Below, one piece after another: positions 25,549 to 60,872 of a stretch of DNA of 64,000 nucleotides. The position numbers and the translations under genes were made by a program. How positions within the stretch are numbered: position 1 is the stretch's first letter; the number at the start of each line of letters is the position of its first letter. Under the pieces are notes generated by a model. That model ran no database searches, was not told where the DNA came from, and saw only the letters and a list, made by a program, of their open reading frames with translations. Source of the DNA: Candidatus Peribacteraceae bacterium (GTDB taxonomy: Bacteria > Patescibacteriota > Gracilibacteria > Peribacterales > Peribacteraceae); the NCBI GenBank assembly GCA_041666245.1, contig JBAYHG010000003.1, positions 15,977 through 79,976 of the forward strand. The letters run 5' to 3'.

Positions 25549-25550
25549 GG

Positions 25551-31636: not shown

Positions 31637-31685
31637 GAGAAGTACTCTAGGAGGAATGTGACACGAGTGCGAGTCGCAGGATCGC

Positions 31686-32996: not shown

Positions 32997-33154
32997 GGCA
33001 CAGGGAAGGCCGGGAGCCGCGCAGGGAGAGTATACTGAAGAATGCGGGAGCCAACCGGAAAGTGTCCAAAACCGCCGGGAAAGCGATAATGTGTGGAAAT
33101 GGGAATTTTAAGCCGGCTCCGTGTCCTGTGTGCCTTCTGCTATGATCGGTGCTC

Positions 33155-43832: not shown

Positions 43833-44702
43833 ATGCAGAAAAAAGGAACAATCTTCTTCGTCAGGCTGCGCCGCGCGCTCGCCCCCTCTTTGCGTTTCAT
43901 CCTCGAACACTGCGGGCCGTTGCGGTTCTTGGGCGTGACGCTGATGTCCTGGTACCTGAAGCCCGTCGTCCAGTGGGACGGTCACACGGTTTCCGTGGAC
44001 CCGACGGATTTCGGAGTGACGTTCGAGCTGGAATCGACGGGGGAGTACGAGGCGACGACCATGTCGCTCTGCAAGAAGCTGTTGCAGCCGGGAATGGTCT
44101 TCGTGGATGTCGGAGCCAATATCGGACTCTTCACGTTGATGGCGGCACGACAGGTTGGGCCGGCAGGACATGTGTATTCCTTCGAGCCGGGTGCGGCCAA
44201 TTGCGTTCTCCTGAGGAAGAACGTGGAGCAGAACGGGTACCACAACGTGACGCCCGTCCAGAAGGCGGTGACCGACCGCAGCGGATCCGCCATCCTGCAC
44301 CAGTCCGGTTTCAACAAGGCCGATCACCGTACGTACCACGTGTCGAAAGGGCGCAAGCAGGTCGCGATCGAATGTGTCTCTTTGGACGAGTACTTCCCGC
44401 CTGATGCACGCATCGACGTGATCAAGATGGACATCGAAGGAGCGGAAGGAGCGGCTCTTCGCGGTATGCAGCGCATCCTGCGTTCCCCGCATCCTCCGAA
44501 GCTCGTCATGGAATGCTGGCCGCCCATGCTCGTCAAAGCGGGGACGGATCCACTCCGGCTCCTGCAGTCACTGGAGGAGATGGGGTTTGCTCTCTCTCTG
44601 ATCGACGATGCTGCTGATGTCGTCACACCGCTCGATGCCGCCTCCATTCTGAAGATCTGCGAGGAACATGACGTCGGAAACGTTCTCTGCGTCCGTCGCT
44701 GA
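43833..44702 (+). CDS. FkbM family methyltransferase
   Basis: ..GMVFVDVGANIGLFTLMAARQVGPAGHVYSFEPGAANCVLLRKNVEQNGYHNVTPVQKAV..IDVIKMDIEGAEGAALRGM... The ATG at 43833 (MQKKGTIF) is preferred over the track start at 43572. Confidence 0.85.
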   Translation: MQKKGTIFFVRLRRALAPSLRFILEHCGPLRFLGVTLMSWYLKPVVQWDGHTVSVDPTDFGVTFELESTGEYEATTMSLCKKLLQPGMVFVDVGANIGLFTLMAARQVGPAGHVYSFEPGAANCVLLRKNVEQNGYHNVTPVQKAVTDRSGSAILHQSGFNKADHRTYHVSKGRKQVAIECVSLDEYFPPDARIDVIKMDIEGAEGAALRGMQRILRSPHPPKLVMECWPPMLVKAGTDPLRLLQSLEEMGFALSLIDDAADVVTPLDAASILKICEEHDVGNVLCVRR

Positions 44703-45103
44703 TGACGCATGATTCCTCCATGCCCCGGCTGAGGGTTCCGGTCATACAGTTCACCCAGTTCCTCCTGAGTGGCGGGGCGGCGGCGGTCCTTGCCATTGCC
44801 GTCTATGCTCTGCTTCTGCAAGCCGGCCTGTGGTACGTCTACGCTTCCGTGTGCAGCGACGGTGTGGGTCTCCTCACTCAGTTCTTCCTGAACAAGTATC
44901 TGGTCTTCCGGAAACGGGAACGCATGATTCCCCATGCTGTCCGTTACGCTGTCGTTCAGGCGGGGAATACGATCTTTCAGGCGGCTTTGGTCTATGTGTT
45001 CGTGGAATTCGCCGGCGTCGACAAAATCCTCGCGCGGATCCTCTCCATCGGCGTTTTTGTTCCCGTGAATTTCCTCCTCTACAAGTTCTTTGTGTACGTG
45101 TGA
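44702..45103 (+). CDS. GtrA family membrane protein (lipid-linked sugar translocation candidate)
   Basis: ..VIQFTQFLLSGGAAAVLAIAVYALL..FFLNKYLVFRKRE..VPVNFLLYKFFVYV. It has four TM helices and the GtrA-type NKY-x-VF motif. Confidence 0.8.
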   Translation: MTHDSSMPRLRVPVIQFTQFLLSGGAAAVLAIAVYALLLQAGLWYVYASVCSDGVGLLTQFFLNKYLVFRKRERMIPHAVRYAVVQAGNTIFQAALVYVFVEFAGVDKILARILSIGVFVPVNFLLYKFFVYV

Positions 45104-46221: not shown

Positions 46222-48672
46222 ATGCGCGTTCGCCGTTTGCCAGATTGGCAGGTATTCCTTGGTACTCATACCCTTTTCGTCGCACTGGCGCTCGTGCCGT
46301 TTCTTTCCGGTGCCTGCCTGTATTCCGCAATGGGCATTTGGCATTCGTACCCCTTCTTCGAGCTCTTCTCGTTTCACAACCTTCTCTCCGGCGAAGTCTT
46401 CATGAATCGGCTGGGTATGAATGGATTTCCTTCCTTCGTCCCTGTCGGCTTCTCCCTCCATCCGCTCACCTATGTCTTCAATACTTTCCTGCCGCCCTTC
46501 ACCGATTTGCACTGGTTCGTCTTCACGATCATGGCTGCGGGTGGTGTGCTCTGTTCTCTCCTCCTCCGTCGTCTGGGCATTTCCAGGTTGGGGGCGATGG
46601 TCGGAGGAGCCTGCTACGTGACGGGGAGCTGGTGGCTGACGACCACGCTGGATTATGCCCCTTCCATGACCATGCTCCCGCTGATTCCCATGGTCCTCCT
46701 GCAGAGTCGCACGCGTCCCGTCCTCGCGACGTTCTGGGGTGCGCTCCTCTCCGGATACATCTGGTTCGGCGTGAATGCGCAGATGTCGCTCATGATATTC
46801 ACCGCATTTGGTGTCGGAGCCCTTGCTCTGGCGATGCGTGAATCCGTACGAGGCTGGCGCGCTGCACTGCGCCCGGTCGTCGTCCTCTTCCTGAGTCTTG
46901 CTGCGGGCACCCTTCTCGGGATTCCCAAGGTCATTCCCTCGCTGGTCTACGGCAGTCTCTCCTGGCGAGCCGGAGGGCTCTCTCTTGCAGAGGCGGGGGC
47001 GGGCGGGCTCCGTCCGCTCACAGCCGTAACCTATCTCTTTCCTTACATCAGCTTCCCATTCCTGAATTTCGGCTGTGATTTGCTCCAAGTGTACATCGGA
47101 GCGTTCGGATTCATGTTCCTGCTTGTTGGTTTTTGGATAGCCTTCTCCCGTCGTTCGAACGGTGCCGTGTCAGGTCTCGTTTCCTTACGGTGGTGGGTCG
47201 TTGCCTACGTTGTAGTTCTTGCTTTCGCGTTCTATCGATCGCCTCTTGTCGCTCTCCTGCACTCATTTCCACCCTTCTCGTTCTTCCGCGGTCCGGGGCG
47301 ATGGACAATACTCAGCAGCTTCGTTGCCGCACCGATCATCGGGATGGCGTTTGACGCTCTCGTACAGGGAAGAGTGGAACGCATGCGACGGGTGTTCGCG
47401 CTGCTCTTCGGAGTCGTTGCCGCGTTCATCAGCATCGCGTTCGCGGTGGTTCAACTGTCGTTGCAGTTCTTCTCCGGGGCGCTGATCACCATTTTCCAGC
47501 GCTACTTTGCTTACTTTCATTCCTCGCTGCATCTGGGGCCGCCCCTCTCCTACTACGAGACGTTCGTCGAACGGAGGATTCATGAGTTCGCCCTCTCCCC
47601 CATTTTCCTGCAGCCGCGCACGTTCTTTCCGTTCATCTCCATCGTGATTCTGGCTGTCGTCCTGCAGGATCGCGTGTGGGAGAAGGCCCGTCACAGAGCC
47701 GTGTTGCTCGTGACATGCAGCCTCCTGACGTCCGCCCTCACTCTCATTTGGTTTGATCGTCCTTTTCCAAGAAATGCTCTTCCGAAAGGAAACCCAGTGG
47801 AAGTGTTCTTGCAGGGGCATCCGGGAACTGTCCTCGATGTCTTCTCGAACGGCACGGCCGCGGAGCTCGCCCCAGGGTATCGTTTTTCGAAAGGGGATGA
47901 GCTCGTCTGGACGTTCGTTCATCACGTTCCAAATACCAATCTTCTCTCCGGCATCCATATGCTGGATTACTTCGACAACCTCGCATCGCGGCGTCCGTCC
48001 GCTCTCGCATCGTGGGTCGGGGCTGCAACCCTGCCCACGCCGTCCGCTTACCAACTCGTTGCATTCCCCGGGACCACGGCAGACAAGATCAGGGAGTTCG
48101 GTCGCCGGAAGGATGTTCTCGATATGCAGGGCGTGCGCTACCTCACGAGCTCTTTCTCTCTGAACGGTGCCTCCCTGCGCAACGTCTTCGAAACCCGTGT
48201 GACATCCGCGAATATTCCACTGTACATATACGAGAATCCCGCTGCACGGCCGAGTGTGTACTTCGCCGACAGTGTCGAGACGATGGCGGAAGACGAGAGC
48301 GAAGCACTGGAGCGTATTTTCCATGAACAGTGGCACGGGAGACGATCTCTCCTCGAGTGTGAGCCTGCCTGTTCGCTGCAAACTTCCAGCGGGAGGGGGG
48401 AGATAGAGACGGTTGAAGATCGTCCGCAATTCCTCACACTTCAGACACAGGCCGCAGAGCCGCAGTGGCTCGTGGTGACGATTCCCCGGCTTCCCGGATG
48501 GGAGGTTCGGATTGATGGTGAAGTGGCGAATTCCGTCTATGCCAATGCCGCCTTCTTCGGCATCCCGGTTCCTGCAGGTTCACACACCGTGACGCTTCGA
48601 TATTCCGTTCCCTTGCTCCTGAAAGAAGGCGTGGCGCGTCTCCTCACGGGTGGATACAACGATGTGTTCTAG
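46222..48672 (+). CDS. YfhO-like large membrane protein (GT-C-fold glycosyltransferase candidate)
   Basis: 816 aa. About 13 TM helices are followed by a soluble region, a late TM helix, and a C-terminus ..VVTIPRLPGWEVRIDGEVANSVYANAAFFGIPVPAGSHTVTLRYS.. that resembles the YfhO C-terminal signature. Confidence 0.7.
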   Translation: MRVRRLPDWQVFLGTHTLFVALALVPFLSGACLYSAMGIWHSYPFFELFSFHNLLSGEVFMNRLGMNGFPSFVPVGFSLHPLTYVFNTFLPPFTDLHWFVFTIMAAGGVLCSLLLRRLGISRLGAMVGGACYVTGSWWLTTTLDYAPSMTMLPLIPMVLLQSRTRPVLATFWGALLSGYIWFGVNAQMSLMIFTAFGVGALALAMRESVRGWRAALRPVVVLFLSLAAGTLLGIPKVIPSLVYGSLSWRAGGLSLAEAGAGGLRPLTAVTYLFPYISFPFLNFGCDLLQVYIGAFGFMFLLVGFWIAFSRRSNGAVSGLVSLRWWVVAYVVVLAFAFYRSPLVALLHSFPPFSFFRGPGRWTILSSFVAAPIIGMAFDALVQGRVERMRRVFALLFGVVAAFISIAFAVVQLSLQFFSGALITIFQRYFAYFHSSLHLGPPLSYYETFVERRIHEFALSPIFLQPRTFFPFISIVILAVVLQDRVWEKARHRAVLLVTCSLLTSALTLIWFDRPFPRNALPKGNPVEVFLQGHPGTVLDVFSNGTAAELAPGYRFSKGDELVWTFVHHVPNTNLLSGIHMLDYFDNLASRRPSALASWVGAATLPTPSAYQLVAFPGTTADKIREFGRRKDVLDMQGVRYLTSSFSLNGASLRNVFETRVTSANIPLYIYENPAARPSVYFADSVETMAEDESEALERIFHEQWHGRRSLLECEPACSLQTSSGRGEIETVEDRPQFLTLQTQAAEPQWLVVTIPRLPGWEVRIDGEVANSVYANAAFFGIPVPAGSHTVTLRYSVPLLLKEGVARLLTGGYNDVF

Positions 48673-48683
48673 GGAGTCAGCGT

Positions 48684-49454
48684 TCACCGAACCGTCCCAG
48701 AACCTCTCCAGCTCACGCCTTTGTATGGTGTGATAGAGATGTTCGTGAACTGCGACGGATCGAGCCATCGGGTGATCCGCTCCTTCGTGATGAAGTGTGT
48801 CTGCGGGGCGTTGAGCTTGTCGAACACATTGAGAAGATTCCTCCGGTAGCCGAGTTTGCGCCAGTTTTGGAAGTACTCGTAGAAGGGGAGGAAGGGCAAT
48901 GGCAGGAGGTAGAGCGTGTAGATCGGGAGATAGAGAAGGGTTGTCAGGATGTGGGCGAGAACAAGATTCACGTTCCGCGGTAGGCGCAGGAGGATGAGTC
49001 GTTTCAGCCACTCCAGGAGTGTGCGGTTGAGGAAGTTTCCTTCCTTCGAGTAGACCCAGACGATCACGCGGCCACCCGGCGCACAGTGGCGTGCGATATT
49101 CGCGAATGTCCGGTCCGGATCGTCGGTGTGGTGAAGCACGCCGATGCAGTAGACGATGTCGAACTTCCTCTGGAGATCCATTTCCGCCAGATCCGCCTCG
49201 ACCAGCCGGACATTGGGCAGATTCGCGGTGCTCGTAGCGGCGCAGCTGACCGCGTTCAGATCCACTCCCGTGACCGAACGGGCAACCGGTGCCGTGAAGG
49301 TGATGTGCTGGCCACCGCCGCAGCCGCAATCGAGGACGTCTTTTCCACGGAAATCCTCCAGCGTGTTCGGTGCGATCCAGTCGGCGAAGAGCCAACGATT
49401 GTCGTCGAAGAACGTTTGCCACTGCCAAGCCCACTGGGGATGCTTCTTCTGCAT
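48684..49454 (-). CDS. Class I SAM-dependent methyltransferase
   Basis: This is only the C-terminal 256 aa of track ORF 48684..50759: MQKKHPQWAWQWQTFF..DVLDCGCGGGQHITF..VEADLAEMDLQRKFDIVYCIGVLHHTDDP..CAPGGRVIVWVY... The upstream two thirds of that ORF are antisense to the asnB-like gene. Confidence 0.8.
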   Translation of the reverse strand: MQKKHPQWAWQWQTFFDDNRWLFADWIAPNTLEDFRGKDVLDCGCGGGQHITFTAPVARSVTGVDLNAVSCAATSTANLPNVRLVEADLAEMDLQRKFDIVYCIGVLHHTDDPDRTFANIARHCAPGGRVIVWVYSKEGNFLNRTLLEWLKRLILLRLPRNVNLVLAHILTTLLYLPIYTLYLLPLPFLPFYEYFQNWRKLGYRRNLLNVFDKLNAPQTHFITKERITRWLDPSQFTNISITPYKGVSWRGSGTVR

Positions 49455-49499: not shown

Positions 49500-51377
49500 A
49501 TGTGTGGGATTGCCGGCATCATCCGATTGAATGGCGAAACCGCTGATCAGGGGCATATCGACCGCCTGACGGACGCCTTGAGCCACCGCGGTCCGGACAG
49601 TCGGGGGACGTTCATCCATGGGAACGCCGGTCTCGGATTTCGACGACTCTCCATCCTCGATCTCACGCCGGCCGGGAATCAACCGATGGTCTCGGATGAC
49701 GGACAAACCGTCGTGGTGTTCAACGGGGAGATCTACAATTTCGCGCAGGAGCGCGCCGCGTTGGAATCGAGAGGACATCGCTTCCGTTCCCGTGGTGATA
49801 CCGAGGTGCTCCTGCACCTGTATGCAGAGTACGGGGAAGCGTGCCTGGAACACCTGCGCGGCATGTTCGCCTTCGCCATCCTCGATCTGAAGCGGGGCAC
49901 GCTCTTCCTCGCGCGGGATCGGGTGGGCAAGAAGCCGCTCAAGTTCTTCGCGACACCGACGCTCTTCGCCTTCGCCTCGGAGCTCAAGGCGCTGCGGACG
50001 TTGCCGGAGTGTCCCCGGGAGGTCGATGAGGAAGCTATGCATCACTTCCTGACGATGATGTACCTGCCTGCCCCCCTCACGGGATTCCGCGGCATCGAGA
50101 AGCTCCCCGCCGCACACGCGATGCGCGTCGATCTTCGCACAGGGGAGCGGAAGATGTGGCGCTACTGGGAGCTTTCCTATGAGCCGGATGACGGCCCCGC
50201 TCTCGCCGAATGGCAGGAGCGGATCAGGAAGACATTCGACGAGAGTGTCCGCTTGCGGATGGTGGCGGATGTTCCCGTGGGGGCGTTCCTCTCCGGCGGC
50301 GTGGATTCGGCGGCCGTCGTCGCGTCGATGAGCGGACTCTCCGATCGCCCCATCAAGACCTTCTCCATCGGGTCCGAGCACGAGAAGATGAATGAGCTGC
50401 CGGGCGCGGCAGTCATCGCGAAGAAATTTGGGACCGACCACCATCCGATCATGGTCGAGCCGGATATCGTCCGCCTGCTTCCGGAGCTCGTCGCGACGTA
50501 CGAGGAGCCCTACGCCGATCCGTCCTCCATTCCCACGTACCTCATTGCCCGGGAGTCCCGCAGGAATGTTACGGTGGCGCTGAACGGCGACGGCGGGGAC
50601 GAGAATTTCGCCGGCTACATCCGCTATCCCATCCTCCGCTTCTCGGAACGGTGGCATCAGTTGCCCTCCTGGATGCACGCGCTCGTCTCCGGCGGGACGG
50701 ATCTCTTCCATCGGCTGCGCAACGACACGTTCAGCTACCGTGTGCGGCGTTTCCAGCATTCGATCGGATTGCCGTTTCCGCGGCGCTACCTGCAGTACCT
50801 CAGTTTCTTCACCGAAGAAGAGAAGCAGGCGCTCTACAAGGACACGTTCCCGTCATTCCCCCGGACGGATGCATGGTACGAAGCGAAGACGGAGCATGCA
50901 CGGAGCCGGGGAGCCGACCTCGTCTCCCGTGCCCAGTCGATGGATCTGGAAACCTACCTCGCCGATGATCTCCTCCCGAAAGTCGATCTGGGATCGATGG
51001 CGCACGGCCTCGAGGCGCGTTCCCCCTTCCTCGATCACGCGCTCCTGGAACTCACGGCGCGCATCCCCGTTCGTCACAAGGTCCACGGGCGGGTGGGGAA
51101 GTGGATCCTGAAGGACATGCTCCGGAACACGCTCCCCACCGAAACGCTCTGGGAGAAGAAGCGGGGGTTCCGCCTCCCGCTCGATCTCTGGTTCAGGGGA
51201 GAACTCAGTGGTTTCGTTTCCGATCGTCTCCTCACCGGATCCCCGGCCTTCTGGCGTTTCTTCGACCGCGGCCGGATGGAGCGGTTTCTCGTCTCGTACA
51301 GAGGTTCCAGCGTCGATTATTCAGACCACGTCTGGGCGTTGCTCTGGTTAGAGGAATGGCTGCGGAGCAGCGTGTGA
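49500..51377 (+). CDS. Asparagine synthase (glutamine-hydrolysing) family amidotransferase (WbpS-like context)
   Basis: MCGIAGIIRLNG..HRGPDS..FNGEIYNF..GDTEVLLHLY..VPVGAFLSGGVDSAAV.. shows the N-terminal nucleophile Cys2 and the SGGxDS PP-loop. Confidence 0.9.
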   Translation: MCGIAGIIRLNGETADQGHIDRLTDALSHRGPDSRGTFIHGNAGLGFRRLSILDLTPAGNQPMVSDDGQTVVVFNGEIYNFAQERAALESRGHRFRSRGDTEVLLHLYAEYGEACLEHLRGMFAFAILDLKRGTLFLARDRVGKKPLKFFATPTLFAFASELKALRTLPECPREVDEEAMHHFLTMMYLPAPLTGFRGIEKLPAAHAMRVDLRTGERKMWRYWELSYEPDDGPALAEWQERIRKTFDESVRLRMVADVPVGAFLSGGVDSAAVVASMSGLSDRPIKTFSIGSEHEKMNELPGAAVIAKKFGTDHHPIMVEPDIVRLLPELVATYEEPYADPSSIPTYLIARESRRNVTVALNGDGGDENFAGYIRYPILRFSERWHQLPSWMHALVSGGTDLFHRLRNDTFSYRVRRFQHSIGLPFPRRYLQYLSFFTEEEKQALYKDTFPSFPRTDAWYEAKTEHARSRGADLVSRAQSMDLETYLADDLLPKVDLGSMAHGLEARSPFLDHALLELTARIPVRHKVHGRVGKWILKDMLRNTLPTETLWEKKRGFRLPLDLWFRGELSGFVSDRLLTGSPAFWRFFDRGRMERFLVSYRGSSVDYSDHVWALLWLEEWLRSSV

Positions 51378-51520: not shown

Positions 51521-52792
51521 ATGAACTCTCATCGCAAGTGGCGCGCAGGAATCCTCGTTGCGTCTCTCCTCATCTTCGGCGCGCTGACGGTGTACCAGCT
51601 TCTGCAGCCTGCCGGGCGGACATTTTCCAGCGACAGCGCCAGCTATGACGCGGGTGCGGTCAATTTGGTGCACTCCCTCACCTACTCGCTCGACGGCACG
51701 ACGCCGACGATGGAGCGGGAGCCGGGGTACAGCGGTTTCCTCGCTCTCCTCTACGGTCTCTCAAGCGATCATAACCGGTTCGTCATCTTCGTCGGGCAGT
51801 ACCTGCTCTTCCTTCTTTCACTCGGTCTCCTGCTGGCGGAGCTGCGGCATCGCATGTCCGAGCGTGTCCTCCTCCTCACGGCGGGGTTCCTTCTCCTCTT
51901 CCCATCACTCTTTCATGCTCATTTGAGCGTCATGCGGGAGAGTCTTCTCGCATCACTCTTCCTCCTCCTCGCGACTGCGATGCTCTCGCTCATCCGCAAG
52001 CCCCGGAGAAACGCCGCACTTGCGCTGGGCTTTCTCTCTGCTGCGATCATCCTCACGGGACTCCCGTTCCTGTTCCTGCCGTTCCTCCTCGCGGGATTTC
52101 TCCTCATGCAGCGCGTGTCGTGGCGGTATCTCCTGCCGCTCCTCCTCATCCCCTTCGTCTGCGTGGGCTTGTGGGGGATCCGCAACCGGGTGGAATTCGG
52201 CCGATTCGCGTTTGGAGGGGATTTCCGCACCACGGCGATGCTCTACGTGCGGGCGGAGCAGGCTGAGAAGGTGCATGGAGTGGAGGCATTCCGGTGCCTC
52301 TGGTCGGAGTACGTCTCACGTGATTGGACGGGACGGTCATCGGCCTGTTCTTTCAACGGTCTCGTGAACACGAAGTGGCCGGGGCGCGTCCCCACGGCAC
52401 AGGATCCGGAGATCCGTCGTGAGAGCATCGCGACGATCCTCCGGGATTTCCCCAATTACCTCTGGTTCTCGGTCTTCGAAATCCTCGAATACCACGTTCC
52501 CTACGTGGACGGCTGGGGACATCTGTACAACATCGCCGTCACGGTCGCACAGCTCTTGCTCTACGTCGGCTGCGCCGTCGCCCTGTTCCGATGGGAGAAG
52601 TGGGGGACCGTGGAATGGCTCTGTACGCTGCTTGCAGCCTATTCTCTCGGTATCTACATCCTCACCGATGCCACGCCCCGCTACCACGTGCCGCTCCTCG
52701 GGGCCTATGCGATCCTCGCCGCGACGGGGTACAATACCCTTCTGACCCGTTTCCATGAACGCCGTCTCCGTCATCATCCCGGCTTACAATGA
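51521..52792 (+). CDS. GT-C-like (ArnT/PMT_2-type) polytopic membrane glycosyltransferase candidate
   Basis: MNSHRKWRAGILVASLLIFGALTVYQLL..SSDSASYDAGAVNL..EREPGYSGFLALLYGL... It has about 11 TM helices. The acidic-aromatic motif lies after TM1. The 3' end overlaps the next GT2 by 38 nt. Confidence 0.65.
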   Translation: MNSHRKWRAGILVASLLIFGALTVYQLLQPAGRTFSSDSASYDAGAVNLVHSLTYSLDGTTPTMEREPGYSGFLALLYGLSSDHNRFVIFVGQYLLFLLSLGLLLAELRHRMSERVLLLTAGFLLLFPSLFHAHLSVMRESLLASLFLLLATAMLSLIRKPRRNAALALGFLSAAIILTGLPFLFLPFLLAGFLLMQRVSWRYLLPLLLIPFVCVGLWGIRNRVEFGRFAFGGDFRTTAMLYVRAEQAEKVHGVEAFRCLWSEYVSRDWTGRSSACSFNGLVNTKWPGRVPTAQDPEIRRESIATILRDFPNYLWFSVFEILEYHVPYVDGWGHLYNIAVTVAQLLLYVGCAVALFRWEKWGTVEWLCTLLAAYSLGIYILTDATPRYHVPLLGAYAILAATGYNTLLTRFHERRLRHHPGLQ

Positions 52793-53582
52793 AGAGGGAG
52801 CCATCGGCTCCGTCATCGAACGTCTGCGCAGGGTCGTCCCCGGCGCGGAGATCATCGTGGTGGATGACGGCAGCGCGGACGGCACGGCCGCCGCCGCAGA
52901 AGCGACCGGGGCGCAGGTTATCCGTCGTCCCGGCAACGGCGGGTACGGACGGAGCATCAAGGACGGGGTGAACGTCGCGACGAACGACACCATCGTCATC
53001 ACGGATGCGGACGGTACCTATCCCGTCGAAGAGATTCCTGCGCTGCTAGAGAAGAAGAAGGCGGGGTTCGACATGGTCGTGGGTGCGCGGCAGGGGAAAT
53101 TTTACCGCGGGTCTTTGCTCAAGAGAGCCGCCCGCTTCTGCCTCAAGCTCATCGTGGAATTCGCCACGGGCCGCCGCATTCCGGATGTGAATTCCGGCCT
53201 GCGCGTTTTCTCGAAGGCAGTCGTTTCGCCGCTCTTCCCGGATATCTGCGAGGGATTCAGTTTCTCGACGACGATCACGCTCCTCCACCACCTCACACAC
53301 CGGTCCGTGGCGTACGTTCCTGTTGCCTATGAGCGGCGCACGGGCTCATCCAAGGTCAGTCATCTCCATGACACGCTGCGCACGCTCCAGTACATCACGG
53401 AGTGCCTCATCCACTACAACCCGCTCAAGCTCACGATCCTCCTCTGTGCTGTCGTGTTCCTCGTGGGGGCTGTCACGTCCTTCTGGTTCGGTCCCTATGC
53501 AGTCCTTGAAGCATTCCTCTTCACGGCCCTCGTCTTTGCGCTCGGGTGCGTCATGGAGGGCAACAGGAAACCTCGCAGATGA
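52755..53582 (+). CDS. GT2 glycosyltransferase with C-terminal TM helices (polyprenyl-phosphate sugar synthase type)
   Basis: MNAVSVIIPAYNEEGAIGSVIERL..IIVVDDGSADGT..ITDADGTYP..SGLRVF..plus the C-terminal hydrophobic LKLTILLCAVVFLVGAVTSFWFGPYAVLEAFLFTALVFALGCV. Confidence 0.85.
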   Translation: MNAVSVIIPAYNEEGAIGSVIERLRRVVPGAEIIVVDDGSADGTAAAAEATGAQVIRRPGNGGYGRSIKDGVNVATNDTIVITDADGTYPVEEIPALLEKKKAGFDMVVGARQGKFYRGSLLKRAARFCLKLIVEFATGRRIPDVNSGLRVFSKAVVSPLFPDICEGFSFSTTITLLHHLTHRSVAYVPVAYERRTGSSKVSHLHDTLRTLQYITECLIHYNPLKLTILLCAVVFLVGAVTSFWFGPYAVLEAFLFTALVFALGCVMEGNRKPRR

Positions 53583-53609
53583 GACGCGGGATGTTGAGTG
53601 TGGGTCCTC

Positions 53610-54680
53610 TTACACGTAGACCAGAAACTTGTAGAAGAAGAAATTCCAGGACACGACCACGCCGATTCCGATGACTTTCGCCCACATGGGACCGATGCTC
53701 AAGTGGTCCACGAGGACGTAGACGATGAGTATCTGGGCGAGGATGTTCCACACCGTCAGGATGCCGTAGCGAAATGCGTGGTGAAAGAACCGCTCTTTCT
53801 TCCGGAAGACGAGGTACTTGTGCAGGAGGAAGGCGGAGACGATGCCGACGATCGCGGAGGTCGGTGTCGCGACGAGGTAATGGACTCCGAGGATGAGGAG
53901 GAGCTTGTACGACAGGAGTTCCAGTGCCGCGGCCGTGCCACCACTCGCGAGGTAGCGGAGGAATTGTGTGATCAAGTGCCGGTGCGTGCGAAGGAACGAC
54001 CGTTCGCGAACACAGATGAGAAGTCCCGTGAGGCATCCTTTCCATGCGTCGGCGAAGCGGATTTTCTTGCCTTCTTCCAGTGAGCGCGGGTGGTAGGTGA
54101 TCGGCACTTCGTGCATGGTGATCCCCCGTGCGAGCGGGTAGCAGCAGAGCTCGGCCTCCAGCTCGAACCCGCGCGCCGTGAGCGGCAGAGAGCGCAGGAG
54201 GTCTGTGGGGAAGAGTTTGTAGCAGGTGTAGGAGTCTGTGAGGCGGGACGCGAAGAGGAGGTTGAGGATTCCCGTCACGAACTTGTTGCCGAGGAGATAG
54301 CGCCGGTAGAGGTTGGGATTGGGACGGAGGAAGCGGGAGCCGAGAACCACGCTTCCGGGGTTCTGTTCCGCGAGCGTGAGGAGGGAGAGGATCTCACGGG
54401 GATCGTACTCAAGGTCGGCATCCTGAATGGCCGTGAAAGCCCCCGTTGCCTGTGTGATGCCGAGGCGGACTGCCGATCCTTTTCCACCATTCTCCTTCGT
54501 GAGAACCAGATCTTCAGGTCGTGCGTTTCCGTGGAGGAGAGCGAGGGAGCCGTCCTTCGAGCCGTCATCGACGTAAATGATCTGCGCTTCGGGGCATGCA
54601 TCCATGAGTTCCCGCATGGCGGCGAGGAGGGTCCGTTCCTCGTTGTAGACCGGCATGATGATGGAGAGGCGCGGGGGCAT
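53610..54680 (-). CDS. GT2 glycosyltransferase fused to a C-terminal GtrA domain
   Basis: MPPRLSIIMPVYNEERTL..IIYVDDGSKDGS..IQDADLEYDP..then ..ITQFLRYLASGGTAAALELLSY..FLLHKYLVFRKKE..VVSWNFFFYKFLVYV. The C-terminal ~130 aa parallel the free-standing GtrA at 44702. Confidence 0.85.
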   Translation of the reverse strand: MPPRLSIIMPVYNEERTLLAAMRELMDACPEAQIIYVDDGSKDGSLALLHGNARPEDLVLTKENGGKGSAVRLGITQATGAFTAIQDADLEYDPREILSLLTLAEQNPGSVVLGSRFLRPNPNLYRRYLLGNKFVTGILNLLFASRLTDSYTCYKLFPTDLLRSLPLTARGFELEAELCCYPLARGITMHEVPITYHPRSLEEGKKIRFADAWKGCLTGLLICVRERSFLRTHRHLITQFLRYLASGGTAAALELLSYKLLLILGVHYLVATPTSAIVGIVSAFLLHKYLVFRKKERFFHHAFRYGILTVWNILAQILIVYVLVDHLSIGPMWAKVIGIGVVVSWNFFFYKFLVYV

Positions 54681-55852
54681 CAGAGGATGATGAAGGGATG
54701 GACCGAGGTGGCAAGTGCAAGCGCCCCACCGAGGCCGAGCAGCAGCACAGCCGCGGCGAAGTACTTCGCAGGCAGCGTGTCACGTGTCGCTGCATGAAGC
54801 AAGATCGCGGGGTACACAGGCGTGATGACCCTTCCGATGGAGGTGATGGAGCCCCAGATGACGATTGGCATCATCGTCATGAGGGCGAGGAAGGTGAACG
54901 CGGCGAGCGGGAGGAAGGTTCGTTGCCGCTTACGGATCATTTCATCGAGGCTCCAGAGGAGTGCCGGAAGGACGAAGAGGAGCGCGAGAGGGATGGAGGT
55001 GAGTGTCAGACGGTTATACCCGTAGGTTCCCGCGAGGAGCGGTACGACCGCTCCGAAGGGGAAGGTGAATTTCGCAGTGCTCCAAAGGAAGGGGATCGAA
55101 CCGAAGATGCCGAAGATCACGCCGTGCCACGCAAGGAAGGCGCCTGCGGGGATGAAGAGGAGGAGAGCCTCGTGCCACTGTTTCTTCCATAGTGAATACA
55201 GGAAGAGAAGACCGACGACGAGGATATTCACTTCGCGCGTCAGGACGAGGAGTGAGAGGAGGAACAAATCGAAGGCATGGAGATGTGATCGTTTCCTATA
55301 TCGGAGAAGGAGCGCCGTCAGAAGGAAGATCGTCAGCGGTTCGGCGAGGGAGAAGTGCAGGCCGATGAGTGCGGCGGGGGAGAGAGCAAGAGCAAGGGCG
55401 TATGGCCACCAGCGTCTGTTCGTTTCGATGATCAGCGTCGCGGTCCCGAGCAGGCACAGGAATTGGATGAGGAGGAAGCTCCACGGCAGAAGAGCGTCCT
55501 GTCCGAGCGCAAAGGTGAATGCGAGGACTGGCAGGAGGATCCGCTGCCAGGCATAAGGGCCGGGGAGCCGCTGTCGCACCGCTTCCCATTGTCCGGTCAT
55601 CACGAGAGGGAGGGTCCGGGCGAGCTGGTAGTACTGCGCGCCGTCGTAGGCGGGGACCGAAAGGACGACGAATCCGGAAGGCGGGACGTGGTTCTCCGCG
55701 AGTGGTGTATCCAGATGGAAGAGCGCCGAGACATTGCCGTTGTACGGCAGGAGCGTCAGAGTAAGGAGACTCGCGAGGATGAAGGCGAGAAGCAGGATCG
55801 GCCAGTGTTTGCGGATCTTAGCGCGCATCAGATGCAGGAGCGTGCGCGACAT
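54680..55852 (-). CDS. Polytopic membrane protein (about 12 TM; glycopolymer polymerase/GT-C-like candidate)
   Basis: MSRTLLHLMRAKIRKHWPILLLAFILASLL..VPAYDGAQYYQLAR..then continuous TM helices. The stop shares 1 nt with the start of the GT2-GtrA gene. Alternative starts lie at 55888, 55852 and 55828. Confidence 0.6.
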   Translation of the reverse strand: MSRTLLHLMRAKIRKHWPILLLAFILASLLTLTLLPYNGNVSALFHLDTPLAENHVPPSGFVVLSVPAYDGAQYYQLARTLPLVMTGQWEAVRQRLPGPYAWQRILLPVLAFTFALGQDALLPWSFLLIQFLCLLGTATLIIETNRRWWPYALALALSPAALIGLHFSLAEPLTIFLLTALLLRYRKRSHLHAFDLFLLSLLVLTREVNILVVGLLFLYSLWKKQWHEALLLFIPAGAFLAWHGVIFGIFGSIPFLWSTAKFTFPFGAVVPLLAGTYGYNRLTLTSIPLALLFVLPALLWSLDEMIRKRQRTFLPLAAFTFLALMTMMPIVIWGSITSIGRVITPVYPAILLHAATRDTLPAKYFAAAVLLLGLGGALALATSVHPFIIL

Positions 55853-56555
55853 CCATGAAGGCTTCCTCCACTGTCGCTTTCCGCGCAATGACGCACAGAT
55901 GGCTGCCGGTGTGCGGGAAGAGAAGGAGCAGGAGACGAGTGAGGATGCCGCGGGCTTTCGATGTCGCGCCGATGTTTTCGATCACGAAACCATGTGTCTC
56001 GAGGAGTTGCCGGAGCATCGCAGGCGTGTAGAAGATCTTGTGTTGCGGTTGGAGCAGTACCTGCCCTTTCTCTCTCAATTCGGAGAAGGCGTTCCTTGCC
56101 TCATGGAAGGACAACGTGCGGTTGTCACCCATGGAACTTTCGCGGCGGAAGAGGAAACCCATGATAGTGCCGATGCGGTATGGATTGGGCGTGTCGAGCA
56201 GGAGGAGACCTCCCGGTTTCAGGATGCGCCGGCATTCCCGGATCATCATCGAAGGCGTCCACGTGTGTTCGATGATCTCTCCCGCGTAGACCGTATCGAA
56301 TGAACCGTTCTCAAACGGCGCATGTTCCAGATCGCCGACGACCTGATTCGGCAAGGCAAGTTTCCGCGTCAGGCCTTCGTTGGAGTCGAGGCCCACGTAC
56401 GTGCCGCCTTCCGCTTCCACCGCCCGCCTCAATCTCTCATTGGTCGACTCGCCGTCACCGAGATTTCCGGCATCCAGAAGCCGTATCGGTTTCTTCGGAA
56501 GCGACTCCAACACGAACCCGAGACGGCCGGGGTACGATCGAAAGGTGAAGCGCAT
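55818..56555 (-). CDS. Class I SAM-dependent methyltransferase
   Basis: ..IRLLDAGNLGDGES..YVGLDSN..DLEHAPFENGSFDTVYAGEIIEHTWTP..LKPGGLLLLDTPN... Confidence 0.8.
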   Translation of the reverse strand: MRFTFRSYPGRLGFVLESLPKKPIRLLDAGNLGDGESTNERLRRAVEAEGGTYVGLDSNEGLTRKLALPNQVVGDLEHAPFENGSFDTVYAGEIIEHTWTPSMMIRECRRILKPGGLLLLDTPNPYRIGTIMGFLFRRESSMGDNRTLSFHEARNAFSELREKGQVLLQPQHKIFYTPAMLRQLLETHGFVIENIGATSKARGILTRLLLLLFPHTGSHLCVIARKATVEEAFMDVAHAPASDAR

Positions 56556-56560: not shown

Positions 56561-57835
56561 TCAGAGCGTAAGGTACGAGGCTCCCGTGGTCGAGACGACA
56601 GCAGGGTCGATGACACCCTTCAGGTCAAAGAGAATACCGTCCGGGGAAAGCGCCTTCAGCAACCCCTTTGCTCCCAAGGTGACGTACGGTGTGTGCGTGA
56701 CGAGCAGAACGATGGCGTCGTAGGGGCCACGTTCCAAGGTTCCCGGCCTGAAGCCGAGTTTCGAAATTGCCTCTTCGGGAAGAAACGGGTCGTGCGCTTC
56801 CACGGCGAAACCGCGCTTCATCAGGTGTTTCACCACATCCTGCGCCTTGCTGTTCCTGGTGTCGGGAATGTCCTCTTTGAACGTGAGGCCGAGGACGAGG
56901 ATGCGCGCATTCTTCTTCCCACCCAACGCCGCAGCCACGCGTTCCGCCACATACCCGCTCATGCCGTCGTTGGTCGATCGCCCGGCCGTGATCACGTGCG
57001 TCGTCATGCCGAGCTGCTTCGCTTTCTCCACGAGGTAGTACGGATCCACGCCGATACAGTGGCCGCCGACGAGGCCGGGAGAAAACTTGAGGAAGTTCCA
57101 CTTCGTGCCCGCCGCCGCCAGTACATCCTTCGTCGAGATGCCGATCTTTCCGCAGAGCATCGCGATCTCATTCATGAAGGCGATATTGATGTCGCGCTGC
57201 GCGTTCTCGATGGCTTTGGCCATCTCCGCCACTTTGAGCGACGGTGCGCGATGCACGCCCGCCACGATCACTGATCCGTAGAGATCCATGAGCGCATCCG
57301 TGGTCTTCTCGTCCTGCCCGGACACGATCTTCCGGATCTTTGTGACCGTGTGCTCCTTGTCGCCGGGGTTGATCCGTTCCGGCGAGTAGCCGAGAGTGAA
57401 ATCCTTTCCGCATTTCATTCCTGAATGTTTCTCGAGGATGGGACCGCAGAGCTCCTCCGTGACGCCGGGGTAGACGGTCGATTCGTAGACGACGATGGCG
57501 CTCTTCTTCAGGTTCTTCCCGACGGTTTCCGAAGCCTGGAAAAGAATCGTCATGTCGGGGTTGTTCTCTTCATCAATGGGTGTCGGGAGAGCCATGATGA
57601 CCACGTCACCGTTCTTGATGATCGCGGGGTCTGTCGAGAACTCGATCTTCGCCTCTCCCAATTGTGTTTCGCTCAATTCCAGCGTTGAGTCCTTGCCCGC
57701 CTTCAATTCCTCCACGCGCCGCTTCGAGATGTCATACCCGAAGACAGGATGCCCCTTCTTCGCGAAGGCGTGCGCGAGCGGGAGGCCCACGTAGCCGAGT
57801 CCCACGACGCAGATCGAACAACGGTCGGTATCCAT
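56561..57835 (-). CDS. Nucleotide-sugar 6-dehydrogenase (TviB/WbpO/WbpA-like UDP-N-acetylhexosamine dehydrogenase family)
   Basis: ..ICVVGLGYVGLPLAHAFAKKGHPVFGYDISKRRVEELKAGKD..ALPTPID..YESTVYPGVTEE..GYSPERINPGD..GGHCIGVDPYYL..LGLTFKEDIPDTRNS... Confidence 0.88.
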   Translation of the reverse strand: MDTDRCSICVVGLGYVGLPLAHAFAKKGHPVFGYDISKRRVEELKAGKDSTLELSETQLGEAKIEFSTDPAIIKNGDVVIMALPTPIDEENNPDMTILFQASETVGKNLKKSAIVVYESTVYPGVTEELCGPILEKHSGMKCGKDFTLGYSPERINPGDKEHTVTKIRKIVSGQDEKTTDALMDLYGSVIVAGVHRAPSLKVAEMAKAIENAQRDINIAFMNEIAMLCGKIGISTKDVLAAAGTKWNFLKFSPGLVGGHCIGVDPYYLVEKAKQLGMTTHVITAGRSTNDGMSGYVAERVAAALGGKKNARILVLGLTFKEDIPDTRNSKAQDVVKHLMKRGFAVEAHDPFLPEEAISKLGFRPGTLERGPYDAIVLLVTHTPYVTLGAKGLLKALSPDGILFDLKGVIDPAVVSTTGASYLTL

Positions 57836-60791: not shown

Positions 60792-60872
60792 GACATGACT
60801 CTAGGATGTCACCATGTCTTGTCAACAATATTCCTATACCCGTCTCGGCGCGGGCTGCGGTATGCTGCAAGC

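What the first reader, a model, noticed from the sequence alone, without database searches (positions are those of the whole stretch)
51521..55852. Two GT2 + polytopic-membrane-protein modules placed tail to tail
The plus-strand pair is the GT-C-like gene 51521..52792 and the GT2 52755..53582, which overlap by 38 nt. It converges on the minus-strand pair, the membrane protein 54680..55852 and the GT2-GtrA fusion 53610..54680, which share 1 nt. Only 27 nt separate the two stops (53582 and 53610). Tight coupling within each pair suggests obligate partners. The mirrored arrangement looks like a duplicated or recruited module with a different membrane component: an ArnT-like protein with SSDSASYD, versus a 12-TM protein with PAYDGAQYY.
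Basis: partly seen in the sequence, partly recalled or inferred. Interest (0 to 1): 0.6.

Follow-up and report, generated by a model that had tools for sequence, protein, structure and literature searches.

The report
Two convergent lipid-sugar glycosylation gene pairs
In the cell-surface sugar locus of an uncultivated Candidatus Peribacteria bacterium, two unrelated gene pairs sit tail to tail; each pairs an enzyme predicted to load a sugar onto a membrane lipid carrier with a membrane enzyme predicted to transfer it outside the cell, which is a known kind of system, although one of the membrane enzymes belongs to an uncharacterised family.

Summary
GTC_A (51521-52792,+) overlaps GT2_A (52755-53582,+) by 38 nt. 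MP_B (54680-55828/55852,-) shares 1 nt (TGATG) with the GT2-GtrA fusion (53610-54680,-). The two stops are 27 nt apart.

Both GT2s resemble polyprenyl-phosphate sugar synthases: GT2_A is closest to ArnC and GT2_B to Pyrococcus DPMS. Both membrane proteins give confident AlphaFold models (pLDDT 96 and 91) whose best PDB matches are all GT-C enzymes, with ArnT first. MP_B has no Pfam domain and scores below the cut-off of NCBIfam AZOBR_p60025.

Both pairs are conserved neighbours in 200 species genomes of the order:
- GTC_A with GT2_A: 43 genomes have both (15.6 expected), adjacent in 40.
- MP_B with GT2_B: 74 genomes have both (35.9 expected), adjacent in 55.

The pairs are not duplicates. The GT2s are 29% identical and form separate clades at 99% support, and the membrane proteins are only remote GT-C relatives. 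The tail-to-tail junction occurs in 12 of 45 genomes that have both GT2s. Each pair belongs to a larger conserved block: TviB-like dehydrogenase-(methyltransferase)-MP_B-GT2_B, and AsnB-like amidotransferase-GTC_A-GT2_A. The GtrA fusion is specific to this lineage.

Verdict: two ordinary three-component-type extracytoplasmic glycosylation modules, of moderate interest.

The parts
51521..52792 (+). GTC_A: 423-aa polytopic GT-C-fold membrane protein (the frame opens at GTG 51425). Predicted extracytoplasmic glycosyltransferase that uses a polyprenyl-phosphate sugar.
   Evidence: AlphaFold2 pLDDT 95.8. Foldseek top hits are ArnT 5f15 (E 6e-5), AglB, STT3, PglB and Pmt4. Pfam PMT_2 is below threshold. 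D38, Y42, R66 and E67 are invariant in 45 homologues. Present in 59 of 200 genomes of the order.
52755..53582 (+). GT2_A: 275-aa ArnC/GtrB-type GT2 with two C-terminal TM helices. Predicted polyprenyl-phosphate sugar synthase.
   Evidence: PF00535 E 7.6e-28. Best NCBIfam hits are AglJ, dolichyl-phosphate hexose transferase, PpgS and ArnC, all below equivalog cut-offs. Best solved relative is ArnC 9bhc, E 1.3e-22 over residues 3-239. Two hydrophobic segments at 217-269. Overlaps GTC_A by 38 nt.
53583..53609 (.). 27-nt spacer between the two convergent stop codons.
   Evidence: Sequence read. No terminator-like hairpin. Folding z-scores are -0.02 and +0.52.
53997..54680 (-). GT2_B catalytic domain (residues 1-228 of the 356-aa fusion). 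DPMS/PpgS-type predicted polyprenyl-phosphate sugar synthase.
   Evidence: PF00535 E 2e-23. Best solved relative is Pyrococcus DPMS 5mlz, E 4.3e-14. Orthologues at 57-70% identity are free-standing proteins of about 226 aa, in 118 of 120 database hits and 47 of 48 loci.
53610..53996 (-). GtrA-type four-helix domain fused to GT2_B (residues 229-356). Predicted flippase or membrane anchor.
   Evidence: PF04138 E 5.3e-21. It is 44% identical (E 6e-27) to the free-standing GtrA at 44702-45103. The fusion is seen only here and in a metagenome contig at 86% identity.
54680..55828 (-). MP_B: 382-aa polytopic membrane protein (alternative starts ATG 55852 and TTG 55888). GT-C fold, related to the AZOBR_p60025 family, and the predicted transferase partner of GT2_B.
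   Evidence: No Pfam hit. NF046093 E 1.5e-29, 102.9 bits against a 150-bit cut-off. AlphaFold2 pLDDT 90.7. The Foldseek top 19 are all GT-C-fold proteins, with ArnT 5f15 first at E 7e-3 and TM about 0.5. Invariant residues include D62 (YDG), R96, E163, R198-E199 and R333. TGATG overlap with GT2_B.
55818..56555 (-). Class I SAM methyltransferase (MT2) between the dehydrogenase and MP_B.
   Evidence: PF08241 E 2.4e-14. Found in the same position in only a few relatives, for example L030, L051, L052 and L054.
56561..57835 (-). TviB/WbpO-like nucleotide-sugar 6-dehydrogenase. First gene of the conserved block B and the probable source of the sugar for GT2_B.
   Evidence: TIGR03026 at 401 bits (above cut-off). 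TviB model E 1.5e-117, 392.9 bits against a 592-bit cut-off. Lies directly upstream of MP_B on the same strand in 44 of 53 loci.
49500..51377 (+). AsnB-type glutamine amidotransferase. Conserved gene upstream of GTC_A (block A).
   Evidence: PF00733 E 2.4e-93. TIGR03108 E 8e-171, below cut-off. Upstream of GTC_A on the same strand in 23 of 29 independently sampled loci.
48684..49454 (-). Class I methyltransferase (MT1), divergent from AsnB. Recurs with block A.
   Evidence: Methyltransferase domains. Found beside AsnB or GTC_A in L013, L029, L032, L036, L039, L042, L064 and L068.
44702..45103 (+). Free-standing GtrA (133 aa). The only other GtrA domain in the genome, so a candidate flippase for module A and the other modules.
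   Evidence: PF04138 finds two places in the whole genome, this one and the fused domain. Orthologues at 46-63% identity in relatives.

Best explanation
The region holds two different, non-duplicated modules of the 'three-component' type of extracytoplasmic glycosylation, inside a surface-glycan locus of roughly 50 kb in a Candidatus Peribacteria (CPR) genome.

The proposed mechanism for each module is as follows. A cytoplasm-facing GT2 transfers one sugar from a nucleotide sugar to polyprenyl phosphate. The lipid-linked sugar is flipped by a GtrA unit: the domain fused to GT2_B in module B, and probably the free-standing GtrA at 44702 for module A. The partner GT-C-fold membrane protein (MP_B or GTC_A) then transfers the sugar to an acceptor on the outer face of the membrane. 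The acceptor is probably the glycan built by the many GT4 and GT2 enzymes of the same locus, or a surface protein. It cannot be lipid A, which this genome does not make.

Each pair is the core of a larger conserved block. Block B is TviB-like UDP-HexNAc 6-dehydrogenase, then an optional methyltransferase, then MP_B, then GT2_B. Block A is a divergent methyltransferase, then an AsnB-like amidotransferase, then GTC_A, then GT2_A. From this I infer that module B delivers an N-acetylhexosaminuronic acid and that module A may deliver its amidated form or a related sugar.

Shown here: gene structure, homology, predicted fold, synteny and co-occurrence. Inferred: enzyme activities, the direction of flipping, the identity of the sugars and the acceptor.
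For: GT2 class:
- GT2_A matches AglJ, dolichyl-phosphate hexose transferase, PpgS and ArnC in NCBIfam, and its best solved relative is ArnC.
- GT2_B's best solved relative is Pyrococcus dolichyl-phosphate mannose synthase 5mlz, and it carries a GtrA/DPMS_TM domain.

GT-C fold:
- Both models are confident, with pLDDT 95.8 and 90.7.
- The top Foldseek hits are exclusively GT-C-fold proteins, almost all glycosyltransferases: ArnT, AglB, STT3, PglB, PMT, ALG3/6/9, AftA/B and Emb.
- Each protein has an invariant Asp in the first loop after TM1, and hhalign aligns these two Asp motifs with each other.

Synteny:
- MP_B-GT2_B is adjacent in 45 of 48 loci.
- GTC_A-GT2_A is adjacent in 25 of 29 loci.
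- In 200 genomes, GTC_A and GT2_A co-occur in 43 (15.6 expected) and MP_B and GT2_B in 74 (35.9 expected). GTC_A and MP_B co-occur in 51 (23.3 expected) and, where they share a contig, lie 0.7-13 kb apart.

Not duplicates: 29% identity and separate clades at 99% support.

Blocks: the TviB-like gene lies upstream of MP_B in 44 of 53 loci, and AsnB lies upstream of GTC_A in 23 of 29.

Other points: there is no LpxC in a genome that is 97.5% complete. The definition of three-component systems is taken from PMC11127046.
Against: - No enzyme here or in either membrane-protein family has been assayed.
- The Foldseek scores for MP_B are modest (best E 7e-3, TM 0.47-0.51).
- GTC_A reaches only 19.4 bits on PMT_2, and MP_B is below the NF046093 cut-off.
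- All NCBIfam matches of the GT2s are far below equivalog cut-offs, so sugar specificity is unknown.
- Module A has no flippase gene of its own.
- 16 of 59 genomes have GTC_A without a GT2_A orthologue, and 17 of 91 have GT2_B without MP_B, so the partnerships are not strict.
- The co-occurrence statistics ignore phylogenetic relatedness and incomplete assemblies.
- The sugar identity rests only on gene neighbourhood.
Confidence: 0.7

Rival explanations
1. This is the first reader's reading: the mirrored arrangement arose by inverted duplication of one GT2-plus-membrane-protein module, after which one membrane component was replaced.
For: Both GT2s are Dpm1-like and align over about 200 residues (E 1e-17). 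The two membrane proteins share the GT-C fold and a weak profile match that aligns their loop-1 Asp motifs. The genes are packed tail to tail with a 27-nt spacer.
Against: The GT2s are only 29% identical. Each forms its own clade of orthologues that are 46-68% identical to the query, with 99% SH-aLRT support and long stems, and archaeal and Deinococcus reference enzymes sit nearer to GT2_A than GT2_B does. Their architectures differ: GT2_A has two C-terminal TM helices, whereas GT2_B orthologues are soluble proteins of about 226 aa. The junction is present in only 12 of 45 genomes with both GT2s; elsewhere the blocks lie 0.4-13 kb apart.
Confidence: 0.04
2. MP_B is not a glycosyltransferase. 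It would instead be a polymerase, ligase or export component for a surface glycopolymer (Wzy-, EpsG- or WaaL-like), and the adjacent soluble GT2_B would be an ordinary cytoplasmic chain-building GT2.
For: The related NCBIfam family carries only the generic name 'cell surface glycopolymer formation protein'. Of 45 distant homologues, one hits Pfam EpsG and four hit GT87. The Foldseek E-values are weak. Most GT2_B orthologues have no membrane segment.
Against: The top 19 Foldseek hits are all GT-C-fold proteins, and no Wzy, WaaL, SEDS or flippase structure ranks near them. The Asp of the YDG motif in extracytoplasmic loop 1 is invariant across both the close and the distant family members, as expected for a GT-C catalytic loop. 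GT2_B's nearest characterised relatives are polyprenyl-phosphate synthases: DPMS, ArnC, PpgS and AglJ. PpgS-type synthases also lack TM helices (established knowledge). In this lineage GT2_B has acquired a GtrA domain, which makes sense for a lipid-linked monosaccharide.
Confidence: 0.15
3. The pairs are protein-glycosylation systems (PMT/OST-like) that modify surface proteins such as S-layer proteins or pilins, rather than decorating a polysaccharide.
For: STT3, AglB, PglB and PMT are among the best structural matches for both proteins. GT2_A's best NCBIfam match is the archaeal S-layer N-glycosylation enzyme AglJ. The genome has no LPS pathway.
Against: The pairs are embedded in a large polysaccharide-type locus with at least six GT4 enzymes, at least six GT2 enzymes, three DegT aminotransferases and several epimerases. 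Neither protein has the large C-terminal soluble domain or the WWDYG-type motif of oligosaccharyltransferases; this is read from their lengths of 382 and 423 aa and was not searched for formally. This rival is a variant of the best explanation that differs only in the acceptor.
Confidence: 0.1

Closest known systems
GtrA/GtrB/Gtr* three-component O-antigen glucosylation (Shigella and Salmonella phages; E. coli K-12 CPS-53 yfdG-yfdH-yfdI, L105)
   Same: It has the same logic and parts list: a GT2 polyprenyl-phosphate sugar synthase, a GtrA-family four-helix protein and a polytopic GT-C transferase, with tightly packed and overlapping genes.
   Different: Sequence relationship is only distant: E. 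coli GtrB sits on a long branch outside clades A and B, and E. coli GtrA shows no BLAST similarity to the fused domain. The gene order differs, with the membrane transferase first and the GT2 second. Module A has no GtrA of its own and module B has it fused. The host is a CPR bacterium without LPS.
ArnC/ArnT (with Ugd, ArnA, ArnB, ArnD, ArnE/F) lipid A aminoarabinose pathway (E. coli L104)
   Same: ArnC is GT2_A's best solved relative (E 1.3e-22), and ArnT is the top structural match of both membrane proteins. As in the arn operon, a nucleotide-sugar 6-dehydrogenase is encoded with the synthase and the transferase.
   Different: There is no lipid A in this genome and no ArnA, ArnB or ArnD equivalents in the pairs. 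GTC_A is 423 aa, against 550 aa for ArnT, and scores below the PMT_2 threshold. The dehydrogenase is of the TviB type (UDP-GlcNAc), not Ugd.
Mycobacterial PpgS (Rv3631) / Rv3779 / GtrA-like Rv3789 system, which adds GalN to arabinogalactan (from established knowledge)
   Same: It combines a small GT2 without TM helices that makes a polyprenyl-phosphate HexNAc, a GT-C transferase and a GtrA-family protein. GT2_A matches the PpgS model at E 8e-26 and GT2_B at E 1e-7. GT2_B orthologues are about 226 aa and soluble, like PpgS.
   Different: The scores are far below the PpgS equivalog cut-off of 370 bits. MP_B is not an Rv3779 homologue by any search made here. The predicted sugar (a HexNAc uronic acid) differs.
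Pyrococcus furiosus dolichyl-phosphate mannose synthase (PDB 5mlz), a GT2 catalytic domain fused to a GtrA-like four-helix TM domain
   Same: The architecture matches that of the 356-aa GT2-GtrA fusion. It is the best solved sequence relative of the catalytic domain (E 4.3e-14). Pfam names the TM domain 'GtrA/DPMS_TM'.
   Different: Here the fusion is a recent, lineage-specific event. Orthologues are unfused, and the TM domain is a paralogue of the locus's own free-standing GtrA (44% identity). phmmer aligned only the catalytic domain to 5mlz.
NCBIfam NF046093, AZOBR_p60025 family 'cell surface glycopolymer formation protein'
   Same: MP_B is homologous over the whole 232-position model (E 1.5e-29). 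All 45 distant homologues of MP_B that were tested match this model (best E 5.7e-57) and share the GYDGxxYY, RYQR, EP and TRE motifs.
   Different: MP_B and every other match found in the 301 CPR genomes sampled score below the 150-bit cut-off. The family has no Pfam model, and two searches found no paper and no characterised member.
Pseudomonas aeruginosa O6 WbpO/WbpP/WbpS route to N-acetylgalactosaminuronic acid and its amide (from established knowledge)
   Same: The locus encodes the same trio: a TviB/WbpO-like 6-dehydrogenase, an NAD-dependent epimerase (59459-60367) and an AsnB-type amidotransferase.
   Different: In Pseudomonas the sugars are built into the repeat unit in the cytoplasm. 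Here the dehydrogenase and the amidotransferase are each coupled to a lipid-carrier synthase and a GT-C enzyme. No specificity was tested.

Membership tests
Three-component extracytoplasmic glycosylation system (GtrA/GtrB/GT-C type) | A GT2 enzyme of the polyprenyl-phosphate glycosyltransferase class (GtrB/DPMS/ArnC-like) | tested here: met
   This is met by homology only. Both proteins hit PF00535. The best NCBIfam hits are AglJ, DolP-hexose transferase, PpgS and ArnC. The best solved relatives are ArnC for GT2_A and PfDPMS for GT2_B. DAD motifs are present (TDADGTY and QDADLEY). Activity cannot be tested here.
Three-component extracytoplasmic glycosylation system (GtrA/GtrB/GT-C type) | A polytopic GT-C-fold transferase with a conserved acidic residue in the first extracytoplasmic loop | tested here: met
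   The AlphaFold2 models have pLDDT 95.8 and 90.7. The top Foldseek hits are all GT-C-fold proteins. D38 and D62 are invariant and lie just after TM1.
Three-component extracytoplasmic glycosylation system (GtrA/GtrB/GT-C type) | A GtrA-family (or other) flippase for the lipid-linked sugar | tested here: inconclusive
   Module B has a fused GtrA domain (PF04138, E 5e-21), but almost all orthologous modules lack it. Module A has none. The only other GtrA in the genome lies 6.4 kb upstream of GTC_A.
Three-component extracytoplasmic glycosylation system (GtrA/GtrB/GT-C type) | The synthase and transferase genes are linked across genomes | tested here: met
   They are adjacent on the same strand in 40 of 43 genomes (pair A) and 55 of 74 genomes (pair B). 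Co-occurrence is 43 against 15.6 expected and 74 against 35.9 expected.
ArnT / PMT_2 (GT83/GT39) for GTC_A | A match to Pfam PF13231 or PF02366 above the gathering score | tested here: not met
   PF13231 gives E 1.3e-3 and 19.4 bits against a 26.1-bit cut-off. A few orthologues carry a precomputed PF13231 hit.
ArnT / PMT_2 (GT83/GT39) for GTC_A | Lipid A as the acceptor (ArnT function) | tested here: not met
   There is no LpxC in the window's genome, which is 97.5% complete, while the control genomes respond.
NCBIfam NF046093 (AZOBR_p60025 family) for MP_B | A score at or above the curated cut-off of 150 bits | tested here: not met
   MP_B scores 102.9 bits. None of 301 CPR genomes is over the cut-off. 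MP_B is homologous to the family but lies in a sister branch.
DPMS type III architecture (GT2 + GtrA-like TM domain, PfDPMS) | One polypeptide with an N-terminal GT2 catalytic domain and a C-terminal four-helix GtrA/DPMS_TM domain | tested here: met
   Pfam places the domains at residues 6-139 and 242-354. An independent contig at 86% identity has the same 356-aa protein without gaps.
Recent inverted duplication of one module | The two GT2s (and the two membrane proteins) are each other's closest relatives | tested here: not met
   The GT2s are 29% identical and fall into separate clades at 99% support. The membrane proteins show no BLAST similarity.

The most novel reading that the evidence does not exclude
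The two blocks form one coupled pathway that delivers an N-acetylhexosaminuronic acid (block B: TviB-like dehydrogenase, GT2_B, MP_B) and its amide or another derivative (block A: AsnB-like amidotransferase, GT2_A, GTC_A) to a CPR cell-surface polymer through polyprenyl-monophosphate carriers. In that case MP_B would found a new GT-C glycosyltransferase family, with no Pfam model, no characterised member found here and, as far as I know, no CAZy family. These would also be the first lipid-phosphate-linked HexNAc-uronate donors that I know of.
Probability: 0.2. Interest if true: 0.55.

Novelty: new member of a known kind. Interest (0 to 1): 0.35.

Why it matters
CPR bacteria are uncultivated, have tiny genomes and are thought to live attached to other cells, so their surface chemistry is central to their biology and almost unknown. 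This genome of 1.32 Mb devotes roughly 50 kb to one glycan locus, which holds at least four Dpm1-like synthases, four GT-C-like membrane proteins and both of the genome's GtrA domains. That suggests heavy use of extracytoplasmic, lipid-carrier-dependent glycosylation.

The MP_B family (40 representative clusters at E<=1e-30 and 766 at E<=1e-10) is an uncharacterised branch of the GT-C fold. It has a very clean genomic partner (GT2_B) and a likely sugar source (a TviB-like dehydrogenase). Its function could therefore be tested directly by heterologous reconstitution. None of this changes current concepts: it extends a known mechanism to a new lineage and a new enzyme family.

Tried and rejected
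- Bidirectional terminator in the 27-nt spacer: none was found. The consensus scan shows nothing there, and folding of 53565-53630 on either strand is no better than shuffled sequence.
- Recent duplication: rejected.
- Literature on AZOBR_p60025: no paper holds the term. A search for Peribacteria plus glycosyltransferase gave nothing relevant.
- Finding the namesake AZOBR_p60025 gene on plasmids, to read its annotated neighbourhood: tblastn with a closer family member (P0337) found nothing in PLSDB. An Azospirillum thermophilum plasmid does have a 423-aa hypothetical membrane gene directly upstream of an AglJ-like GT2, but that protein matches no NCBIfam model, so it is not usable as evidence.
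- Pairing outside the order: of six other CPR loci with weak NF046093-like hits (E about 1e-11), three have a GT2 directly beside the hit. This is suggestive only, because the family assignment of those hits is weak.
- GtrA genes next to unfused GT2_B orthologues: none was found within 10 kb at better than 34% identity. The fusion is therefore not a simple loss of a stop codon between neighbouring genes.
- Assigning sugar specificity from NCBIfam equivalogs: every hit is far below its cut-off, so no specificity can be read from them.

Full report
**1. Observation**

ORF listing and translation confirm four genes at the stated places.
- GTC_A: 51521-52792 on the plus strand.
- GT2_A: 52755-53582, plus strand.
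- GT2-GtrA fusion: 53610-54680, minus strand.
- MP_B: 54680-55852 on the minus strand. The public database calls it from 55828, giving 382 aa (P0005).

GTC_A ends ...CAATGA at 52792 while GT2_A starts at ATG 52755, a 38-nt overlap. The MP_B stop and the GT2-GtrA start form TGATG and share one base. The convergent stop codons are separated by 27 nt. That spacer has no terminator-like hairpin and folds no better than shuffled sequence.

**2. What the four proteins are**

Pfam finds GT2 (PF00535) in both GT2 genes, and GtrA/DPMS_TM (PF04138, residues 242-354) in the minus-strand one.
- GT2_A is 275 aa with two C-terminal hydrophobic helices. Its best NCBIfam matches are AglJ, dolichyl-phosphate hexose transferase, PpgS and ArnC. 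Its best solved relative is ArnC (E 1.3e-22 over residues 3-239).
- The GT2_B catalytic domain is closest to Pyrococcus dolichyl-phosphate mannose synthase 5mlz (E 4.3e-14).
- All NCBIfam hits are far below equivalog cut-offs. The class (polyprenyl-phosphate monosaccharide synthase) is therefore supported, but the sugar is not.

GTC_A has only a sub-threshold PMT_2 hit. MP_B has no Pfam hit, and its match to NCBIfam NF046093 (AZOBR_p60025 family) is sub-threshold: E 1.5e-29, 102.9 bits against a 150-bit cut-off.

AlphaFold2 models built on 45 and 42 homologues are confident, with pLDDT 95.8 and 90.7. Foldseek against the PDB returns only GT-C-fold proteins at the top for both: ArnT 5f15 first, then AglB, STT3, PglB, PMT, ALG3/6/9, AftA/B and Emb. 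The E-values are better for GTC_A (6e-5) than for MP_B (7e-3).

Each family has an invariant Asp just after TM1: D38 in SSDSASYD and D62 in PAYDGAQYY. A profile-profile comparison aligns these two motifs with each other at probability 60% and E 9e-5, whereas BLAST sees nothing. The two membrane proteins are therefore remote relatives within the GT-C fold and not paralogues in any recent sense.

**3. Organism and context**

Homologues come almost only from Candidatus Peribacteria/Peregrinibacteria, a CPR lineage. The window's genome is 1.32 Mb and 97.5% complete. It has no LpxC, so an ArnT-like role on lipid A is excluded.

The window from about 13 kb to 63 kb is one glycan locus. It contains:
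- at least six GT4 and at least six GT2 enzymes, and three DegT aminotransferases;
- several epimerases and dehydratases, and a UDP-GlcNAc 2-epimerase;
- methyltransferases, a YfhO-like protein, and a further unit of GT2, a small protein and a GT-C-like protein at 60795-63063.

The genome's only two GtrA domains are both here: the free-standing gene at 44702-45103 and the fused domain.

**4. Are the pairs conserved?**

Three samples agree.
- (a) 61 loci were fetched through MP_B. A GT2_B orthologue follows MP_B on the same strand in 45 of 48 loci with room. A TviB-like dehydrogenase precedes MP_B in 44 of 53.
- (b) 29 loci were fetched independently through GTC_A. GT2_A follows in 25, and an AsnB-type amidotransferase precedes in 23.
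- (c) Presence or absence was scored in the same 200 species genomes of the order (tallied).

| Comparison | Genomes with each | Both | Expected | Adjacent, same strand |
|---|---|---|---|---|
| GTC_A and GT2_A | 59 and 53 | 43 | 15.6 | 40 |
| MP_B and GT2_B | 79 and 91 | 74 | 35.9 | 55 |

Most non-adjacent cases of MP_B and GT2_B involve a divergent MP_B subgroup (31-36% identity) or split contigs.

The two modules also co-occur with each other: 51 genomes against 23.3 expected. Where both lie on one contig they are 0.7-13 kb apart. These counts are not corrected for phylogeny or assembly gaps.

The partnerships are strong but not absolute. 16 genomes have GTC_A without a GT2_A orthologue; in G137 the order is MP_B, then GT2_B, then a convergent GTC_A. 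10 genomes have GT2_A without GTC_A, and 17 have GT2_B without MP_B. Both modules are accessory. None of the seven other genomes of the same genus has GTC_A or GT2_A, and only two have MP_B.

**5. Is it a duplicated module?**

No. The GT2 domains are 29% identical. I built a tree of 15 members of each of three Peribacterial GT2 groups (orthologues plus the window's own protein), together with E. coli ArnC and GtrB (L104, L105) and archaeal and Deinococcus dolichyl-phosphate hexose transferases (L106, L107). Groups A, B and C are each monophyletic at 99% SH-aLRT with long stems, and the archaeal and Deinococcus enzymes sit nearer to A than B does.

The tail-to-tail junction (300 bp or less, opposite strands) occurs in 12 of 45 genomes that have both GT2s. 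It also occurs in the closest known relative, a JGI metagenome contig in which an 86%-identical GT2-GtrA converges on a 91%-identical GT2_A with an 18-nt gap. It is a recurrent arrangement of two co-resident blocks, not a defining feature.

**6. The GtrA fusion**

Among the 120 best database hits to the fusion protein, 118 are free-standing GT2s of about 226 aa with no membrane segment. Only the window's own protein and the 86%-identical contig carry GtrA. In the fetched loci, 47 of 48 complete orthologues are 223-247 aa.

The fused domain is 44% identical (E 6e-27, no gaps) to the free-standing GtrA 9 kb away. It belongs to the same GtrA subfamily, whose orthologues in relatives are 46-63% identical to that free-standing GtrA. 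No GtrA gene lies beside unfused orthologues. The fusion is therefore real, recent and best explained by recruitment of a GtrA paralogue. It recreates the architecture of archaeal DPMS. In another genome (L052) the same GT2 is instead fused to a polytopic extension of about 560 aa with no Pfam hit.

**7. The MP_B family**

A profile search of 1.84 billion representative proteins finds 40 clusters at E<=1e-30, 766 at E<=1e-10 and 2088 at E<=1e-3. All 45 distant members tested match NF046093 (best E 5.7e-57). Four also touch Pfam GT87 and one touches EpsG. They conserve GYDGxxYY, RYQR, EP and TRE.

No match found in the 301 CPR genomes sampled reaches the NF046093 cut-off. MP_B is thus a sister branch of an uncharacterised family, with no Pfam model and no paper found in the two searches made here.

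**8. Mechanism proposed**

Each pair is the core of a three-component-type system as defined for Gtr and related systems: a synthase that charges polyprenyl phosphate, a flippase and a GT-C enzyme (PMC11127046).
- Shown: gene structure, class-level homology, predicted fold, conserved loop-1 Asp, synteny and co-occurrence.
- Inferred: activities, flipping, acceptor and sugars.

The TviB-like dehydrogenase (TIGR03026 above cut-off; TviB model E 1.5e-117) heads block B. The locus also has an epimerase and an AsnB-type amidotransferase, the same trio that makes N-acetylgalactosaminuronic acid and its amide in Pseudomonas O6 (established knowledge). I therefore suggest that module B carries a HexNAc uronic acid and that module A may carry a derivative of it. 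I put about 0.2-0.3 on that sub-claim.

**9. Verdict**

These are conserved partner modules, but they are not duplicates and not strictly obligate.

This is a new member of a known kind of system. The points of moderate interest are:
- an uncharacterised GT-C family with a clean genomic partner;
- a lineage-specific GT2-GtrA fusion;
- the heavy investment of a CPR genome in lipid-carrier-dependent surface glycosylation.

Earlier notes of this scan on other Peribacteria windows describe similar clusters of GT-C and Dpm1-like genes. I treat them as leads, not evidence.

Noticed in passing
window 53610-53996 (-) and 44702-45103 (+): The GtrA domain fused to GT2_B is 44% identical to the free-standing GtrA 9 kb upstream, and these are the only two GtrA domains in the genome. 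The fusion is absent from 118 of 120 orthologues. It is present in one independent metagenome contig at 86% identity, where the GT2 part is much more conserved than the GtrA part.
   Followed up: yes
L052:11137-13521 (+); probably also G152:C9:6336-7076: In another Peribacteria genome the GT2_B orthologue is fused to a C-terminal extension of about 560 aa with at least five hydrophobic segments and no Pfam hit. This is a different way of anchoring the same soluble synthase in the membrane.
   Followed up: partly
window 60795-63063 (+) with 59459-60367 (-): A third unit, made of GT2_C, a small protein and a GT-C-like protein, has a divergent NAD-dependent epimerase beside it. The unit is conserved in many of the relatives' loci, a few kb upstream of the TviB-like gene (for example L002, L006, L014, L020, L023).
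   Followed up: partly
window 46222-48672 (+): An 816-aa YfhO-like membrane protein follows the free-standing GtrA and gmd. It is a fourth candidate user of lipid-linked sugars in the same locus. Only its last 70 residues match Pfam YfhO.
   Followed up: no
window 4709-6403, 9129-12011, 24367-25815 (+) and 31633-33450 (-): Four large ORFs (564, 960, 482 and 605 aa) inside or beside the glycan locus have no Pfam match at E<=1e-5.
   Followed up: no
GTC_A residues about 225-335 (window about 52190-52525): The GTC_A family has a conserved non-hydrophobic insert between TM segments, with near-invariant Cys residues (C259, C276) and the motif CLWAEYISRDWTGRSxACSFNGL. It is probably an extracytoplasmic, disulfide-bonded acceptor-binding domain.
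   Followed up: no
genomes G162-G170 (one genus) and G066, G082, G085, G114, G140, G145, G153, G161: One genus has GT2_B orthologues (57-61% identity) but no MP_B. Separately, a divergent MP_B subgroup (31-36% identity) is not adjacent to GT2_B. Both suggest partner switching within the family.
   Followed up: no
genome level (G018-G024): Neither module is universal within the window's own genus: none of the seven other species genomes has GTC_A or GT2_A, and only two have MP_B. The surface-glycan locus therefore differs between close relatives.
   Followed up: partly
L118 (Azospirillum thermophilum plasmid NZ_CP029358.1) 4599-6921: A 423-aa hypothetical protein with no NCBIfam match lies directly upstream of an AglJ-like GT2 (E 3.5e-60). 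This may be another pair of an uncharacterised membrane protein and a synthase.
   Followed up: partly
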